A stretch of DNA of 30,956 bases from a virus: UHGV virus genome UHGV-0133295. The stretch is one strand, 5' to 3'. The position numbers were made by a program. Of this stretch, positions 15,001 to 30,000 are shown piece after piece; the stretch's first letter is position 1; the number at the start of each line of letters is the position of its first letter.

Positions 15001-18000
15001 TATGTCGACGTCAGGCGTGAGGACGGTTCCTGTACCCGTTGATTTCACAGATGATGTTGCCGTCCAGTCACTGACTGTCCATGCCGGTACATCAGGACAA
15101 GTTCGCGCGGAAGTCAAACTTGAGGGTAATTACGCCATTATTGCGAAGAAAGTACCGTCTGATGATGTTACCGCTCAGAGATTAATCGTTAGCGGCGGTG
15201 AAACAACGTCTTCAGCAGATGGCGCAATGATAACGTTGCATGGTTCCGGAAGCAGTACTCCACGTCGCGCGGTATATAACGCACTCGAACATCTTTTTGA
15301 GAACGGAGATGTTAAACCTTATCTTGATAATGTAAATGCTCTTGGTGGTCCGGGAAACAGGTTCTCGACAGTTTATCTTGGCTCCAATCCTGTGGTTACC
15401 AGTGACGGAACATTAAAGACAGAGGCGGTCTCTCCTGACGAAGCATTGCTGGATGCCTGGGGTGACGTCAGGTATATCGCTTATAAATGGCTGAACGCTG
15501 TCGCTATAAAGGGGGAAGAAGGGGCGAGGATACATCATGGTGTAATCGCGCAGCAACTTCGTGATGTTCTTATTTCTCACGGACTCATGGAAGAAGAAAG
15601 CACAACATGCCGCTATGCCTTTCTTTGCTATGACGATTATCCCGCAGTATATGATGACGTCATTACTGGCCAAAGGGAAATACCGCTGACTGATAATGAC
15701 GGGAGCATCATTGTTGATGAGGATGATAATCCAGTGATGGTAATGGAAGACATCATTGAGCGAGTTGAAATAACGCCAGCAGGATCTAGATGGGGGGTCA
15801 GACCTGATCTCTTATTCTATATCGAGGCGGCATGGCAGCGCAGAGAAATAGAAAGAATAAAAGCTAGGTTAGACTTAATAGAAGGGAAGCACTAAATGTT
15901 TCGTTGGCGTCAAAAATATGAACTGCTCACATAAAGAAGTAAGTACATTGGCAAAAAACATTGACGTCAACGAAATTAAATATAAAAATTTAAATGCTTT
16001 TTAATGACAAGAAAAGTAACTAGTGGTAAAATAACGTAGGATACTAATATGTCAAGACTCAAGACTCAAGACTCAAGACTCAAGACTCAAGACTCAAGAC
16101 TCAAGACTCGTTTTCCGTTGATGATAATGGGTCAGGTAATATTTTTGTATGTGGAGATCTTGTAAATAGCAAAGAGAATAAAGTTCAGTTCAATGGAAAC
16201 AATAACAAACTTATTATAGAAGATGATGTTGAGTGTCGATGGCTTACCGTAATATTTAGGGGTGATAATAATTACGTAAGAATACATAAAAACAGTAAGA
16301 TTAAAGGTGATATTGTCGCAACAAAAGGTTCAAAAGTTATTATCGGTAGAAGAACGACAATAGGTGCAGGTTTTGAAGTCGTCACTGATAAGTGCAATGT
16401 TACAATTGGCCATGACTGCATGATAGCAAGAGATGTTATTTTGCGTGCATCAGATGGGCATCCTATATTTGATATTCATAGCAAAAAAAGGATTAATTGG
16501 GCAAAAGATATCATTATATCTAGTTACGTATGGGTAGGGAGAAATGTCTCTATAATGAAAGGGGTATCTGTTGGAAGCGGATCTGTCATTGGGTATGGGA
16601 GTATTGTAACTAAAGATGTGCCATCTATGTGTGCAGCAGCCGGTAATCCAGCAAAAATAATAAAAAGAAATATAATATGGGCAAGAACGGATAAAGCGGA
16701 GCTAATTAGTGATGACAAGAGATGCTCCAGCTATCATGCGAAGCTCACGCAATAAATATAAAACATCTTGCAGACATATTACCAATATTAATATAAGGTA
16801 ATAAAAATATAATTTACAAAAAAGCCCGTTGGAAGCGACGGGCATTAACCGCGGTAATGGATAAATTATTAATGTTTTTAGATTGTGAACGATATCATAT
16901 TGTGCGGAAGTAGTGAAGTAACCATGTAAAATGATTGTTTCATAGCCTATGAGACACACAAGGCTTTGTGCTCTTCTGTGGATGTGTGGCTACATGTTTG
17001 AAGATCGTTGTGCCGTATTTGTGACATACACATGGCAACATCATGCCTCAACTTTCTGTTTGTGCCATCAACTATAGATTAGTGAATGCGGTTAATGCTT
17101 GCTAAAACAGATAGTTATGATTGGTGCTACAGATTCGTAATGCGAAGGTCGTAGGTTCGACTCCTATTATCGGCACCATCAAGAAAATCAATAACTTAGC
17201 TTAACTTCTCTAAGAAATTGTATCTTCTGTTATCACTTACAAACGCCTATACGTTGTTATGGGCTTTGGTAGTGTAACACGTATGGGCGAGTAGTTCCCA
17301 GGCTCAACCTCGTAACAAGTTCCTTTGAAGCTGGAAGACGTGCCACCGTCTCTAAACCTTCTACCAAAACTCTTAGCAAGATGTTCCACACCTGGCGCGG
17401 TGTCCAATGATGCTACACGTCGTGAGACGTTGCAGAGGATAAACAGGCTAAATGATGGGAAGAGTTTTAAGTGCAATAGTGGATTAAAGCCCACCTCTTC
17501 AAAACCTAACTTGATCGGGAAAGAATCAAGCTCTAGCACGGTTTCGTCCACCGGAGTACAACGGGTGCCTGATAAGAGAAGAACTGCTAAGACTTCATAG
17601 CTTTTGTGAAAAAGCCCTTTTTAGTGGATACGCCTACGGCGCTTATTTTTTGGTATAACCATCAAAGGCGCTTTATGGCTCCTATTGTCTTGAAAATGTA
17701 TCTTTACTTGTATTGTGTTTTATGCGTAGTCTCCCTGTGTAGTATGTAACTTGTTAATTTTCATATGAATACAGAGGCACACGATGAAAAACATTGCAGC
17801 TATCAAACGGAATAACCGCAAGATTCACGCTCGTAAGTTCCTGTCTACGCCAGAAGGAAAAGCCTGGTTAGAGCGTAAACAGAGAGAGAACGAAGAAAGA
17901 AAACTCCTTAGTGAGTTGAAATGGCTTAGAGAGGATTTCTGAAAATCTCCAGAACGCAACAGGACGCATTCTAACGCTGTTTTCATTACTCGGTATAGGG

Positions 18001-27000: not shown

Positions 27001-30000
27001 AGCACCGATAACCAATCTCAAACAGGGTGCTTTAAATAATCTTGCAATGACAACTCCGGCTTATAATTTATCTCCTGTGTTTAATCTGAATCCTACATTT
27101 GAAGTGGTAACAGAAGTTCCTCTTACTATTAATTCTGACACATCCAGATTAAGCGATTATGTGGATTTTACAGCGAGAGCAAGTCGGGATAGCTTCTTGA
27201 AATCATTAACATTAACCAGCTTATCAGGACAATCTAACGGCGGGTAATTCCCGCCATAACATTACAAGGAAATTATTATTATGGCGACCGCCGGGATTTT
27301 AACCATACGAGCAGCAAATACTCAAGAACAAGATGTAAACTCTACAAAAAACGAAAATAGCAAAGCCAATAAAACAAAAGGGGAGAATGGATTTGCTATT
27401 GTCACCAGTGGGCTGGCATCTTCTGGTAATGACGTTTATGAAAATTATATGGCACTGGCCTTTGATAGTGTAGACGATGTGAACGTGAGACGTTCGGCAG
27501 ATGTCACAAGCTACCCCGTAGAAAATGGTGCTACTGTGTCTGATCACGTTCAAATTAAAAACAATAAGTTTTCTCTTAAAGGAAGGATCACTGAAACACC
27601 GATTAAAAGCGATCCTGGCTTGTTAAAGAGTGCAGGGGTGAACGGGAACAGAAGATCATTAGCTATAGACTACCTGAATCAGATTATGGACAGTAGACAG
27701 CCTTTTCTTCTTGTTACAGAAAATAAAACTTTTGAGAACGTTGTTTTAACAGGCATCGAATACACAGAAGAGGCAAGCGAATCCCTGGTATTTGATCTTA
27801 GCTTTGAGCAGATCAGGCTCGTTTCGTATGGCACTGTAAACACTGTAGCTATCAAAACACAGCCATCTAAGAACATAGGGGCGAATATGAAAAAACGTGT
27901 TAACACTGAAAAATCAAGTAGTGAAGGTGAAGACACTATTACTCCTGCCTTTAAACAGGAATAGCCGTAAACACCTCTAAAACGCTCTGTAACGATGTAA
28001 TTATAAAAGAGGCTACCAATCTATGTTGAAGCCTCTTTATTGTGTCTATGGCGTTGTTTTACGCCTTAAATTTGATTTTTTATTGATTGATAAGCCTTTC
28101 TCTATTTCAGGGTAGCGTAGAAGCTCAATATAGTTTTTAAGCTCTACTGGAGAAGCTGCATTCTTGCTATATGTGCGGAATGTTTCTGTATTACCGCGTG
28201 TATGGCCCAGGAGAAGGGCGATCCTGTCTTCTGGAATTTGATTTCGATCAAGAAGCTGTGCTACTCCGTGTCTCAGAGAATGAAACACCTTCCTTTCTGT
28301 TCCCTTTTCCCCTAAAGCCTTTCGTTTAGCTCTTGTAAATCTCTGCGTGTGCCACGTGGAACGCTTGCCGTCTGCACGTTCTGTGATGCTGGCGTGATAG
28401 AACAAAAAGCCATTATGAGGCTTTTCACGCAGCGACAACACCAACGGAGTGATAAGGCTATGTACAGGCACAACACGTGCCGCAGCTTTCGTCTTTCCCT
28501 GTGTGATTTCAAAACACAGCACACCTTCGATCTCTTTCACATCGTCTATGGTGAGACTTGCTATCTCATTGATCCGCATACCTGTATAAGCACCGATAAG
28601 ACACAAAGCTATCATTTCTTTGTTTTCTGCTGAATTACCGGAAAATACTTGCAACACCTGCAATAACTCTTTGTTAGAAAATGCCTCGTAGCTCTCTCTA
28701 CTTTGTGCCACATCAAGCCTATGCCCTCGCCAGGGGGAGAGCGCCCTTTCTGGCGCATCGTGGTAACGTGATGAAGCTAATTCCCATAGCTGGGCCATTG
28801 GGCTGATATAATTTGCAATTGATTGTTGTGAAAGGGTTTTTTGCATGTGTTCAATCCAGCCTGTAACAGTGGTTCGGCTCACATCTTGCAATGCAATATC
28901 AGGCTTTTTACGGTAGGAGAGAAACATCTCTACCGCTTTTCTTGCCTTAGCTAAAGTGGCTGGCTTCTTCTTCGTGCTGTTAATTGTCAGGTAGATTTCA
29001 AGAATTTTAAGCAATGACGGACACGAAGACGCTGTATCTTGCATTCTGGTAGCTGTTTTGGCGTATTTAGCCTTACTGCGTAACAGTTCCAGCGTGTTTT
29101 CTATTGTGCTGTTTACAGGGGCAACACTCTCCCGTAAGCAATGGTATTCATCTGCAATCTGATCACGCTTTCTACGTGCAACACGAAGGTTACTTGTATG
29201 CAGACTCCTGACAAACGTCCTTTTTCCTTCAAAAAAGGGCTGCATATACACAGGCAGCGTGATCCTTAAATAGTAGTTACCGTAAGAATCACAGATTATG
29301 TATTGATTGGGCTTGTATCTCATAAACTCCCCGGCTAAAGTGTCGGAGCGTTTGTAATGTGAAAATTGATTGTAACGCATAGAAAATGATGATTTTTTCT
29401 ATAAGATTCAATCAATTAGTAATGGTCGTAGGTGATGGCATTAACACGAGATTAATCGAGTGTTTTACTCCTATTATCGGCACCATTCTAACGTCTCCCC
29501 AAGTCTACTCAAGTATTTAAAAACCTCTTATAATCAGTATATTAATGCCCCTTTTAGTCTTTTGACGTCTATTTAAGTACCCCAAACTCTACAAGCAATT
29601 GAGGGGATTTGCTGTTCAGTTTAGTGGAGATACCCCCAAGTGAAACTCAATGCCCGTCAAATAGACACTGCCAAGCCAAAAGAGAAGGCTTACAAGTTGG
29701 CTGATGGTGGTGGTCTGTACCTCCTGGTAAAACCTGGTGGAGGAGAATATTGGCGTCTCAAGTATCGTGTAGCTGGTAAAGAGAAGCTGTTAGCACTAGG
29801 TGTGTATCCTGAGGTCACCTTAGCTGATGCTCCTGCAAAACTTGAAGAAGCTAAAAGAGGTATCTCTGGGGGAATCGATCTGATGGAAGTGAAGCGAGAG
29901 GAAAAGATTGCCCGGGAAACGCAGTTAAACAACACCTTCAAAGATATTGCCCTTGAGTGGCACAGTAACAAATTATAATCACAATAATAGTGTATATAAT

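What the first reader, a model, noticed from the sequence alone, without database searches (positions are those of the whole stretch)
17179..29486. Candidate undescribed satellite-like island: integrase, iteron-rich origin, replication initiator and a lone lambda-E-like capsid gene, with no portal, terminase or tail
The island is delimited by 20-bp direct repeats and is far more AT-rich than the adjacent prophage. It combines an integrase, a 3.6-kb cis-acting region, an RHH regulator, an HTH initiator-like protein and a compact module with a gpE-like major capsid protein, a 120-aa upstream partner, a 611-aa coiled-coil/glycine-zipper protein and a 227-aa protein. I found no portal, terminase, protease or tail genes, so it is not a self-sufficient phage. 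It does not look like P4 (no alpha primase, sid or psu) or a classical PICI (no primase-replicase, no obvious terS/ppi). It sits directly beside a complete-looking P22-like structural arm, so it may be a helper-dependent satellite that supplies its own capsid shell; that helper relationship is speculation.
Basis: partly seen in the sequence, partly recalled or inferred. Interest (0 to 1): 0.88.

Follow-up and report, generated by a model that had tools for sequence, protein, structure and literature searches.

The report
Candidate satellite of lytic phi92-like phages
This 12.3-kb island at the thrW tRNA gene looks like a previously undescribed kind of phage parasite: it carries an exact copy of the DNA site where large lytic phi92-like E. 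coli phages form their genome end, plus diverged copies of four of their virion proteins, so it probably hijacks those phages (which are used in phage therapy) and not the prophage next to it.

Summary
The island is real. It spans 17180-29461 and is bounded by 25-nt repeats that are the 3' end of tRNA-Thr (thrW). It stands alone at thrW in other E. coli genomes, its genes are under purifying selection, and relatives with the same gene order occur across Enterobacterales.

"No tail genes" is wrong: the 611-aa protein is a tape-measure homologue and the 227-aa protein a tail-tube initiator. The best solved-structure matches of the three structural proteins are phi92 gp124, gp134 and gp135. phi92-like phages (Stephanstirmvirinae) are roughly 148-kb virulent myoviruses.

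The key new result is in the ORF-poor region. Window 18316-18355 is 40/40 identical to the sequence straddling the inner boundary of phi92's 343-bp direct terminal repeat. The core is invariant in E. coli, Klebsiella and Citrobacter phages of the subfamily. A second island lineage carries the Phapecoctavirus version of the same site.

Best reading: a new family of integrative satellites (or satellite-like interference elements) of virulent phi92-like phages. The neighbouring P22/CUS-3-like prophage is not the helper. Everything is in silico; mobilisation is untested.

The parts
17155..17179 (.). attL core: 3' end of tRNA-Thr (thrW); left direct repeat
   Evidence: 25-nt repeat, 23/25 identical to 29462-29486. 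Window 17133-17179 aligns to the 3' part of the annotated tRNA-Thr in E2865 and APEC O1. No intact tRNA in the window.
17180..17783 (.). Left arm, 99-100% conserved between island copies; probably the attP arm cognate to the integrase (inferred)
   Evidence: Sliding identity 0.98-1.00 against L001 and L002. No family hits for its ORFs and no RefSeq gene.
17784..17942 (+). 52-aa basic protein; candidate recombination directionality factor (inferred)
   Evidence: Annotated in RefSeq. 0 nonsynonymous and 7 synonymous changes against L001. Present only in islands that share this integrase type.
18107..18295 (+). Short tandem repeats (GGTATTTAAGG; TAAATAC/TAAATAG) just upstream of the end-site
   Evidence: TRF rows. 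Similar GGTATTAA repeats precede the site in the divergent island L063.
18306..18384 (+). Copy of the helper-type phage's terminal-repeat boundary (candidate terminase recognition/cleavage site). The position equivalent to the phage genome end is 18329|18330 (GAGAGGTGCT|TAACGCG).
   Evidence: 40/40 identity of 18316-18355 to phi92 318-357, straddling the annotated DTR end at 343. 26-nt block invariant in E. coli, Klebsiella and Citrobacter Stephanstirmvirinae. Kept in Enterobacter islands and in L063. Island lineage 2 has the Phapecoctavirus version. The DTR boundary falls in or next to the core in WPEC4 and KKP3954, and BME3's 342-bp DTR matches phi92's length.
18826..18878 (+). Weak second block resembling the interior of the phage terminal repeat (suggestive only)
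   Evidence: 39/53 identity to Klebsiella phage phi1_175008 DTR positions 165-213, E 1.6e-7 in a small search. Gapped collinearity is no better than shuffled controls.
19234..19632 (.). Candidate replication origin: two clusters of 21-22-nt iterons (GGGGTAGGTCATAGTGAACTA) around 35-nt repeats and an AT-rich stretch
   Evidence: Repeat families D2-D4, D10 and inverted pair I10; TRF. Copy number varies between island copies. Iteron sequence changes where the Rep type changes (L031).
20434..20745 (+). Control region: GAGCGTTTTA repeats and the best sigma-70-like promoter ahead of the early operon
   Evidence: TRF 20605-20624. Inverted copies I1 and I5 at 27968-28009. Promoter TTGACA-17-AATAAT with TG at 20717-20745.
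20857..21045 (+). 62-aa conserved core protein, function unknown
   Evidence: Orthologues in E. coli, Klebsiella and Enterobacter islands. dN/dS 0.09.
21020..21235 (+). 71-aa Arc/RHH-like regulator (weak assignment)
   Evidence: PHROG 582 Arc-like repressor, E 0.004. Conserved in Klebsiella and Enterobacter islands at 61-70%.
21265..21981 (+). 238-aa winged-helix replication initiator (Rep); an exchangeable cassette
   Evidence: PHROG 270/428 replication initiation, 6e-9 and 8e-7; Pfam HTH_36. Rep identity drops to about 30% in otherwise related islands.
21998..22276 (+). 92-aa conserved protein, function unknown
   Evidence: Orthologues in other islands. dN/dS 0.18.
22406..22813 (+). 135-aa core protein, function unknown
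   Evidence: 387 protein clusters, mostly Klebsiella, all annotated hypothetical. AF2 pLDDT 67; no fold match.
22788..23153 (+). 121-aa protein, function unknown
   Evidence: Orthologues in Enterobacter and Klebsiella islands and in L034. dN/dS 0.08.
23487..23699 (+). 70-aa protein, first gene of the structural operon
   Evidence: Follows a terminator-like hairpin at 23394-23418. Orthologues.
23696..24058 (+). 120-aa probable gpD-like head decoration protein (about 65% confidence)
   Evidence: Same position and size as the phage decoration gene. hhalign of the broadened profile against the phage decoration protein: E 0.006, 85 collinear columns. One remote member hits Pfam HDPD at 7e-4. Weak PDB hits to decoration proteins 9ncf_J and 9c2d_J, from entries whose MCPs match the island MCP. 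Shared C-terminal ...VFTS. The AF2 model is poor, pLDDT 54.
24077..25105 (+). 342-aa major capsid protein, E family
   Evidence: Pfam Phage_cap_E, 2.8e-16, full length. Family profile against PDB: Phi92_gp124 at 2.6e-19, residues 2-341 vs 4-332. 21% identical and collinear with the Justusliebigvirus MCP. dN/dS 0.09-0.14.
25194..25397 (+). 67-aa protein before the TMP gene; positional analogue of the phage's small pre-TMP ORF (unverified)
   Evidence: Conserved position in the islands. No sequence similarity to the phage ORF.
25412..27247 (+). 611-aa tape-measure-protein homologue
   Evidence: PHROG 16051, 9.5e-54. PDB Phi92_gp134, 4.9e-37. Collinear with Phapecoctavirus TMP over 1-611 vs 1-661. 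N-terminal 66 aa 53% identical.
27281..27964 (+). 227-aa tail-tube initiator (Dit-like); sits in a variable slot of the family
   Evidence: Pfam Dit_like, 2.9e-29. PDB Phi92_gp135, 1.2e-68. 55% identical to the phage protein. Absent from Klebsiella, Enterobacter and Serratia islands.
28046..29380 (-). 444-aa tyrosine integrase (DUF6538 N-terminus)
   Evidence: Pfam; PHROG 1. dN/dS 0.03.
29462..29486 (.). attR core: right direct repeat (degenerate thrW 3' end)
   Evidence: Island alignments to other genomes end here.

Best explanation
The island is a member of an undescribed family of integrative phage satellites of Enterobacterales. Its helpers are virulent, roughly 145-155-kb myoviruses of the subfamily Stephanstirmvirinae: phi92/Justusliebigvirus for this copy, and Phapecoctavirus for a sister lineage.

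Shown by the data:
- It is integrated at thrW by its own tyrosine integrase.
- It has its own initiator and a matching iteron array.
- It carries an exact copy of the conserved sequence at the inner boundary of the helper's direct terminal repeat, which is where the helper's genome end maps.
- It encodes diverged, selectively maintained homologues of four helper virion proteins (decoration-like protein, major capsid protein, tape measure, tail-tube initiator) and none of the others.

Inferred mechanism:
- On infection by a phi92-like phage the island excises and replicates from its iteron origin.
- The helper terminase recognises and cuts the mimicked end-site, so island DNA is packaged.
- The island's MCP and decoration protein assemble, with the helper's portal, scaffold and protease, into capsids suited to a 12-kb genome.
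- Its tape measure and tube initiator are built into helper-made tails.
- The likely net effect is transfer of the island and interference with the phage.
For: 1. End-site mimicry.
- Against 2.3 Gb of phage DNA, the 3.7-kb ORF-poor region matched only about 63 phi92-type phages, at window 18310-18355.
- 40/40 identity to phi92 318-357, across the annotated DTR end at 343.
- 26 nt are invariant across E. coli, Klebsiella and Citrobacter phages whose flanks average 65% identity.
- The DTR boundary lies within or next to the core in WPEC4 (328 bp) and KKP3954 (309 bp). BME3's DTR is 342 bp by PhageTerm.
- Both DTR boundaries share (A/G)AGGTGCT|.

2. Co-variation.
- Island lineage 2 (L030-L032) lacks the phi92 version. 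It carries the Phapecoctavirus version, including the genus-specific spacer.
- Enterobacter islands and L063 keep the core at the same position.

3. Structural genes.
- The best PDB matches are phi92 gp124, gp134 and gp135.
- The gene order mirrors the phage module.

4. Not a remnant.
- dN/dS is 0.03-0.20 for all genes.
- The same compact architecture occurs in E. coli, Citrobacter, Enterobacter, Klebsiella and Serratia, at different integration sites.

5. Independence from the neighbouring prophage: the island stands alone at thrW in E2865 and APEC O1.

6. Frequency.
- The end-site is in 426 of 5,426 complete E. coli genomes, single-copy and chromosomal.
- In metagenomes 18 of 22 occurrences are islands, 3 are phages and 1 is a divergent island.

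7. Iterons change with Rep type.
Against: - There is no experimental or virome evidence of excision, replication or packaging. The IMG/VR hits are prophage-style predictions from isolate genomes.
- Only one of the two DTR-boundary motifs is present in the island, so how the second DNA end would be formed is unknown.
- That the conserved core is the terminase site is inferred from its position at mapped genome ends. It has not been shown biochemically.
- The island MCP is only about 21% identical to phi92 gp124. The island has no portal, scaffold or protease, so productive co-assembly with helper parts is uncertain.
- Some islands (L020, L024, Klebsiella L004/5, Serratia L006) have no recognisable site.
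- Tracking of phage genus by the tube-initiator protein is weak.
- No induction or sensing mechanism was identified.
Confidence: 0.68

Rival explanations
1. A defence or interference island that is not itself transduced. Diverged copies of MCP, TMP and tube initiator poison assembly of incoming phi92-like virions. The end-site acts as a decoy or as a trigger for terminase cleavage. The integrase and Rep serve only maintenance and amplification.
For: The same data as the main model: phage-specific site and structural homologues. Only one DTR-boundary motif is present. The MCP is very divergent from the helper's. Known satellites such as PLE combine interference with transfer (general knowledge; PMC10085698).
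Against: The wide horizontal spread, with different integrases, integration sites and hosts and a mosaic exchange of modules, needs a transfer route, and there are no conjugation genes. No PADLOC match. A pure decoy would not need a full-length, strongly constrained capsid plus decoration pair.
Confidence: 0.17
2. A decayed remnant of a temperate relative of phi92-like phages that lost portal, terminase and most tail genes by deletion.
For: Structural gene order is collinear with the phage module. An integrase is present.
Against: All genes are under purifying selection. The identical reduced gene set is kept from E. coli to Serratia, down to 38% MCP identity. There are no pseudogene fragments of the missing genes. 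The plasmid-like Rep and iteron origin are not phage-module remnants. Stephanstirmvirinae are described as lytic, and no temperate member appeared in any search.
Confidence: 0.05
3. A satellite of the adjacent P22/CUS-3-like prophage.
For: Physical adjacency, and use of the same thrW attachment site.
Against: The island occurs without the prophage in E2865, APEC O1 and many others. None of the island's proteins or DNA resembles P22-like phages. Tape measure and tube-initiator proteins have no role in a podovirus tail. All phage matches are to myoviruses of about 145-155 kb.
Confidence: 0.03
4. The shared 40-nt sequence has a function unrelated to packaging (for example an early promoter, an origin or a regulator-binding site of the phage). 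The island uses it to sense the phage or to regulate itself.
For: The role of the site in the phage has not been tested. It lies near the left genome end, where early control elements often sit (general knowledge).
Against: Genome ends determined or recorded for four phages map within or next to the invariant core. The outer DTR terminus ends with the same AGGTGCT motif. The core does not resemble a sigma-70 promoter (reading of the sequence).
Confidence: 0.07

Closest known systems
[quoted passage not shown]
   Same: A chromosomal integrative element of similar size class that exploits a virulent myovirus. It has its own initiator and origin, interacts with the helper capsid, and is expected to interfere with the helper.
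   Different: No homologous genes were found. PLE uses ICP1's coat protein with its own scaffold to make small capsids (as cited in PMC12846349), whereas this island encodes its own MCP. PLE is restricted to V. cholerae (PMC10085698). This family spans Enterobacterales and also carries tail genes.
Capsid-forming PICI (cfPICI)
   Same: A satellite that encodes its own major capsid protein and depends on the helper for other virion parts.
   Different: cfPICI encode portal, protease, head-tail adaptor and connector, TerS and TerL, and no tail genes. Tail genes are 'forbidden' in the SatelliteFinder model (PMC10085698). This island has none of those packaging or connector genes, and it does have TMP and tube-initiator genes. 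Described cfPICI helpers are, to my knowledge, temperate phages whose tails they take.
P4 (satellite of P2) and cos-type PICIs
   Same: Packaging by the helper terminase through a copy of the helper's own DNA-end site (cos), together with a change of capsid (general knowledge). Integrated at a tRNA gene by its own integrase.
   Different: No alpha primase, sid, psu, delta or epsilon homologues. The helper has direct terminal repeats, not cos ends, and is virulent. The island brings its own MCP rather than an external scaffold.
Stephanstirmvirinae phages (phi92, phAPEC8 and relatives)
   Same: Homologous MCP, TMP, tube initiator and probably decoration protein, in the same order. Identical or near-identical terminal-repeat boundary element.
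   Different: 12 kb against about 148 kb. No portal, terminase, sheath, tube, baseplate, replication or lysis genes. It has an integrase and a plasmid-like Rep/iteron origin. Protein identities are only 21-55%.

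Membership tests
Phage satellite (general definition) | Mobile element lacking a full set of virion and packaging genes, so it depends on a helper phage | tested here: met
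   Only decoration-like, MCP, TMP and tube-initiator homologues are present. No portal, terminase, protease, sheath, tube, baseplate or lysis genes.
Phage satellite (general definition) | Cis-acting packaging signal recognised by the helper machinery | tested here: inconclusive
   There is an exact copy of the helper DTR-boundary element, co-varying with phage genus. Recognition by terminase has not been demonstrated.
Phage satellite (general definition) | Helper-dependent excision, replication, packaging and transfer | not testable with these tools
   Needs infection experiments. No virome evidence was found.
cfPICI | Own capsid gene | tested here: met
   Phage_cap_E MCP.
cfPICI | Portal, prohead protease, head-tail adaptor/connector, TerS and TerL (core components, PMC10085698) | tested here: not met
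   No such hits in Pfam or PHROGs for any island ORF.
cfPICI | No tail genes (forbidden component in the SatelliteFinder model) | tested here: not met
   TMP and tube-initiator homologues are present.
PICI (Gram-negative type) | Integrase, AlpA-type regulator, primase-replicase, capsid-morphogenesis gene, TerS or redirecting factor; no structural genes | tested here: not met
   Integrase is present. No AlpA, primase-replicase or TerS hits. Structural genes are present.
P4-like | alpha primase-helicase, sid, psu, delta, epsilon, alpA, P2-type cos | tested here: not met
   No hits in Pfam, PHROGs or NCBIfam.
PLE | PLE marker proteins; V. cholerae host; ICP1 helper | tested here: not met
   No sequence relationship was seen in any library. 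Different host clade.
Stephanstirmvirinae prophage or remnant | Large myovirus genome content, or decaying fragments of it | tested here: not met
   12 kb, intact genes with dN/dS 0.03-0.2, and the same reduced set in all lineages.
HK97-fold major capsid protein, E family (the 342-aa protein) | Full-length homology to a structurally characterised MCP | tested here: met
   Pfam PF03864, 2.8e-16 over positions 9-329 of 329. Profile against PDB: Phi92_gp124, 2.6e-19 over residues 2-341. I did not run a structure prediction of the MCP itself.

The most novel reading that the evidence does not exclude
This is the first satellite family of virulent, terminal-repeat myoviruses in Enterobacterales, in effect an E. 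coli and Klebsiella counterpart of PLE. It remodels both ends of the virion. It builds its own small capsid from a private MCP and decoration protein on helper portal and scaffold. It swaps in its own tape measure and tube initiator. It is packaged through an exact copy of the helper's terminal-repeat boundary, and lineages switch helper genus by exchanging that roughly 70-nt module.
Probability: 0.4. Interest if true: 0.92.

Novelty: new variant of a known kind. Interest (0 to 1): 0.82.

Why it matters
- Satellites of virulent phages are known from very few systems (PLE/ICP1 in Vibrio). None is described for the large lytic coliphages and Klebsiella phages that are favoured for therapy against APEC, ExPEC and Klebsiella.
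- The phi92-type site alone is in about 8% of complete E. coli genomes, and relatives are abundant in Klebsiella. If functional, the family could explain strain-specific resistance to phi92-like and Phapecoctavirus phages, and could move DNA during lytic infection.
- The comparison pinpoints a candidate terminase cleavage motif ((A/G)AGGTGCT|) for Stephanstirmvirinae. That makes packaging in this group directly testable.
- Current satellite finders exclude elements with tail genes by design, so similar families may have been systematically missed.

Tried and rejected
- Rfam scan of the island at E<=1: only two sub-threshold chance hits, so no known ncRNA in the ORF-poor region.
- PADLOC: no defence-system match. 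NCBIfam: nothing useful.
- The small tyrosine recombinase seen at the left end of non-E. coli islands is not present as a remnant in the window.
- The 127-aa ORF 18307-18690 over the end-site was rejected as a gene:
  - conservation is contiguous at nucleotide level, with no wobble pattern;
  - the ORF is absent in Enterobacter islands;
  - phi92 has no start codon there;
  - local dS is only 0.025.
- AF2 of the 120-aa protein gave pLDDT 54, so it was not used for a fold search.
- AF2 of the 135-aa protein gave pLDDT 67, and Foldseek against PDB and BFVD gave no hit better than E about 1.
- Scan of one genome per species for the site motif: 3 hits outside Enterobacterales, about the chance level.
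- IMG/VR: 19 loci, all prophage-style predictions, so no evidence of encapsidation.
- Search for the outer DTR boundary in the island: none.
- Gapped collinearity with the whole DTR is not better than shuffles.
- Tracking of phage genus by the tube initiator: differences too small to use.
- Literature searches found no description of such an element. The library lacks most subscription-journal papers, so prior description cannot be excluded.

Full report
**1. The observation**

The island is real. A 25-nt direct repeat (17155-17179 and 29462-29486, 23/25 identical) bounds a 12.3-kb segment. Its GC content (0.33-0.44) is lower than that of the prophage arm to its left (0.47-0.51).

The repeat is the 3' end of tRNA-Thr (thrW). 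In E. coli E2865 and APEC O1 an intact tRNA-Thr directly precedes the same island, and the window aligns to those genomes from 17133 to 29487. ARAGORN finds no complete tRNA in the window. The intact thrW must therefore lie beyond the prophage, with three elements in tandem at this site: a P22/CUS-3-like prophage, the island, and a remnant of the vat pathogenicity island.

Megablast finds at least 80% of the island in 234 of 5,426 complete E. coli genomes at about 95% identity.

**2.

The following are confirmed:
- Integrase 28046-29380(-).
- A winged-helix replication initiator, 21265-21981.
- A weak Arc/RHH-like protein.
- Iterons.
- An E-family major capsid protein (Pfam 2.8e-16 over the whole domain).

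The claim of "no tail genes" does not hold:
- The 611-aa protein matches a PHROG tape-measure family (1e-53).
- The 227-aa protein matches Pfam Dit_like (3e-29).

Against all PDB sequences, the best match of each structural protein is a phi92 virion protein:

| Island protein | Best PDB match | E-value |
|---|---|---|
| MCP family profile | Phi92_gp124 | 2.6e-19, full length |
| 611-aa TMP homologue | Phi92_gp134 | 4.9e-37 |
| 227-aa tube initiator | Phi92_gp135 | 1.2e-68 |

tblastn against 50,697 phage records gives the same picture:
- TMP and tube-initiator relatives are almost all Stephanstirmvirinae (Justusliebigvirus, Phapecoctavirus and Klebsiella/Citrobacter relatives). These are roughly 145-155-kb myoviruses described as lytic.
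- The MCP is more remote. It is 21% identical to, and collinear with, the Justusliebigvirus MCP. It is 23-26% identical to the MCPs of Pseudomonas Pakpunavirus- and Otagovirus-type myoviruses, a group reported as related to Stephanstirmvirinae (PMC12846349).

In phage PaulScherrer the order is decoration, MCP, then a run of other genes, then a small ORF, TMP and tube initiator. The island has the same order with the intervening genes missing.

The 120-aa protein upstream of the MCP is probably a gpD-like decoration protein. No single line is strong, but several agree:
- A broadened profile aligns collinearly with the phage decoration protein (hhalign E 0.006).
- A remote family member hits Pfam HDPD (7e-4).
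- Weak PDB hits fall on decoration proteins from the same virion entries whose MCPs match the island MCP.
- Both proteins end in ...VFTS.
- Its AF2 model was too poor to use.

**3. Not a remnant, and not tied to the neighbouring prophage**

All island genes show dN/dS of 0.03-0.20 against another copy.

The MCP family is chromosomal in E. coli (96, 89, 76 and 73% variants), Citrobacter, Enterobacter, Cronobacter and K. aerogenes (60-64%), K. pneumoniae (55%, a cluster of 721 sequences), Sodalis and Serratia (38-41%).

Contexts in Klebsiella, Serratia, Enterobacter and other E. coli lineages show the same compact order:
- a long ORF-poor stretch;
- two small ORFs and Rep;
- three or four small ORFs;
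- about 70 aa, about 120 aa, MCP, about 63 aa, and a TMP-like protein of about 615 aa;
- a variable slot;
- the integrase.

These copies sit at different chromosomal sites with different integrases. The tube initiator occupies the variable slot: it is present in three lineages and absent in four.

No copy has portal, terminase or sheath genes. E2865 and APEC O1 have the island without any P22-like prophage.

**4. The key finding: a copy of the helper's genome-end site**

The ORF-poor 3.7 kb was searched against all phage DNA with sensitive blastn. The only matches were about 63 phi92-type phages, all to window 18310-18355.
- Window 18316-18355 is 40/40 identical to the reverse complement of phi92 318-357.
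- phi92's left direct terminal repeat is annotated as 1-343. The match therefore straddles the repeat's inner boundary, and the annotated end falls at GAGAGGTGCT|TAACGCG (window 18329|18330).
- A 26-nt block (TTGCGAGAGGTGCTTAACGCGATTTT) and a second block (CCCAAATATCA) are invariant in phi92, two Klebsiella phages and a Citrobacter phage. Their flanks are otherwise diverged, with a mean column identity of 65%.
- The conservation is contiguous at the nucleotide level, and the region is not consistently coding. I therefore treat it as a cis-acting element and reject the overlapping 127-aa ORF.

Independent records put the repeat boundary at the same place:
- WPEC4's two ends repeat over 328 bp, ending at GTGCTT|AACGCGA.
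- KKP3954's ends repeat over 309 bp, ending 9 nt further in.
- BME3's repeat is 342 bp by PhageTerm (PMC12210895).

The outer termini of these phages end in ...AAGAGAAGGTGCT| (phi92...AAGAAAGTAGGCT|). Both boundaries therefore share an (A/G)AGGTGCT| motif, which is what a sequence-specific end-forming cut would produce.

**5. Co-variation with phage genus**

- A second thrW island lineage (L030-L032) has the same integrase, with MCP 72-74% and TMP 62% identical. It lacks the phi92 version of the site.
- Its ORF-poor region instead matches 67 Phapecoctavirus-type phages over 83 nt, again about 270-360 nt from record ends.
- The alignment shows one homologous element with genus-specific forms. 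Lineage 2 shares the Phapecoctavirus-specific spacer GCCGTCAGGTCCACGCAGCGACAATTC.
- Enterobacter islands (MCP 62%) and a divergent island in a 427-kb metagenome contig keep the core at the same position in the element.
- L029 and L046 combine lineage-2 structural genes with the phi92-type site, so the roughly 70-nt module is exchanged between islands.
- Some islands (L020, L024, Klebsiella, Serratia) have no recognisable site. That remains unexplained.

**6. Distribution of the site**

- The phi92-type site is in 426 of 5,426 complete E. coli genomes. It is always chromosomal, nearly always single-copy, and never annotated.
- In JGI/ENA metagenomes the exact 26-mer occurs 22 times: 18 in island copies, 3 in phage contigs (one of 147.7 kb) and 1 in the divergent island.
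- Several metagenome contigs of 12.5-13.4 kb break exactly at the island ends. That shows presence/absence polymorphism or an excised form, but it does not distinguish between them.

**7. Replication module**

- Two clusters of 21-22-nt iterons flank 35-nt repeats and an AT-rich stretch at 19234-19632.
- Iteron copy number varies between island copies.
- Where the Rep protein is replaced by a 30%-identical one (L031), the iterons are replaced by a different 23-nt repeat. This fits a cognate Rep-origin pair.

**8. Mechanism**

Shown by the data:
- integration at thrW;
- a private Rep/iteron module;
- an exact, phylogenetically co-varying copy of the helper's terminal-repeat boundary;
- a selected subset of diverged helper-type virion genes.

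Inferred:
- Infection by a phi92-like phage triggers excision and replication.
- The helper terminase acts on the mimicked site.
- The island's MCP and decoration protein build capsids sized for about 12 kb, using helper portal, scaffold and protease.
- The island's TMP and tube initiator enter helper-made tails.

I put 0.68 on the element being a satellite of these phages. I put less (about 0.4) on the specific picture of remodelling both head and tail.

The main rival (0.17) is an interference-only island that uses the same parts as decoys. A decayed prophage, a satellite of the P22-like neighbour, and a non-packaging role for the site are each unlikely, for the reasons given under rivals.

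**9. Comparison with known systems**

- It works most like PLE: a satellite of a virulent myovirus with its own Rep and origin.
- It also resembles P4 and cos-type PICIs in copying the helper's DNA-end site.
- It shares with cfPICI the possession of its own capsid gene.
- It fails the defining gene sets of P4, PICI, cfPICI and PLE.
- SatelliteFinder treats tail genes as forbidden for PICI and cfPICI (PMC10085698), so this family would be excluded by design.
- Seven full-text literature searches found no description of it. The library is incomplete, so this is absence of evidence only.

**10. Verdict**

- Novelty: a new variant of a known kind, that is, a new satellite family with an unusual gene set and an unusual helper class.
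- Interest is high. The caveat is that nothing here demonstrates mobilisation.

Noticed in passing
window 12950-16755: The left neighbour is a CUS-3-like P22-type prophage arm. It has an endosialidase tailspike (12950-15895) and a neuO-like hexapeptide acetyltransferase preceded by 8 heptanucleotide repeats (16052-16109). From the ATG at 16049 the frame stops after 38 codons, so the gene is in the phase-OFF state here. The acetyltransferase domain ORF (16420-16755) is in another frame.
   Followed up: partly
window 29640-30936: To the right of the island lie a P4-type integrase N-terminal fragment (Arm-DNA-bind_3) and a MarR-family gene. This is the same arrangement as upstream of vat in APEC O1. 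Three mobile elements therefore sit in tandem at thrW.
   Followed up: partly
L012 (phi92), L039 (WPEC4), L040 (KKP3954), L014 (phi1_175008) termini: Both boundaries of the direct terminal repeat of Stephanstirmvirinae phages end with the same (A/G)AGGTGCT| motif. This is a candidate terminase cleavage motif, and I did not find it described.
   Followed up: partly
L004 2768-3585, L006 2932-3689, L007 3955-4726, L063 3145-3723: Islands outside the E. coli thrW lineages carry, at their left end, a small tyrosine recombinase (183-205 aa). In L004, L006 and L007 it is followed by a 63-67-aa ORF with a signal-peptide-like N-terminus. Both are absent from the window's island.
   Followed up: partly
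L020 3650-6848; L024: These islands are about 96% identical in MCP to the window's, but the end-site region is replaced by unrelated sequence. The only phage match is 46 nt to the 109-kb Klebsiella phage KPN4 (E 2e-4).
   Followed up: partly
L004 4394-5083: The Klebsiella pneumoniae island has a Dam-like methylase gene inside the otherwise ORF-poor region.
   Followed up: no
L043, L047, L049, L060 (between window-equivalent 17928 and 18048): Some metagenomic island copies carry an insertion of about 1.25 kb just after the 52-aa ORF. Its content was not examined.
   Followed up: no
plasmid NZ_CP126938.1 40167-45052: A 166-kb E. coli plasmid carries about 42% of the island's ORF-poor region next to an IS3 transposase and a recombinase. 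This is the only plasmid-borne copy found.
   Followed up: no
L034 11075-11746: One island lineage has a tube-initiator protein 76% identical to the Justusliebigvirus protein. That is closer than the two phage genera are to each other (70%), and it suggests repeated gene exchange between islands and phages.
   Followed up: partly
window 18775-19200, 19986-20100, 20448-20624 and 27978-28005: There are further repeat sets of unknown role: TTACACAGGGAATA-like, GTGTAATT-like and GAGCGTTTTA-like. The last also has an inverted copy just downstream of the integrase gene's stop codon.
   Followed up: no
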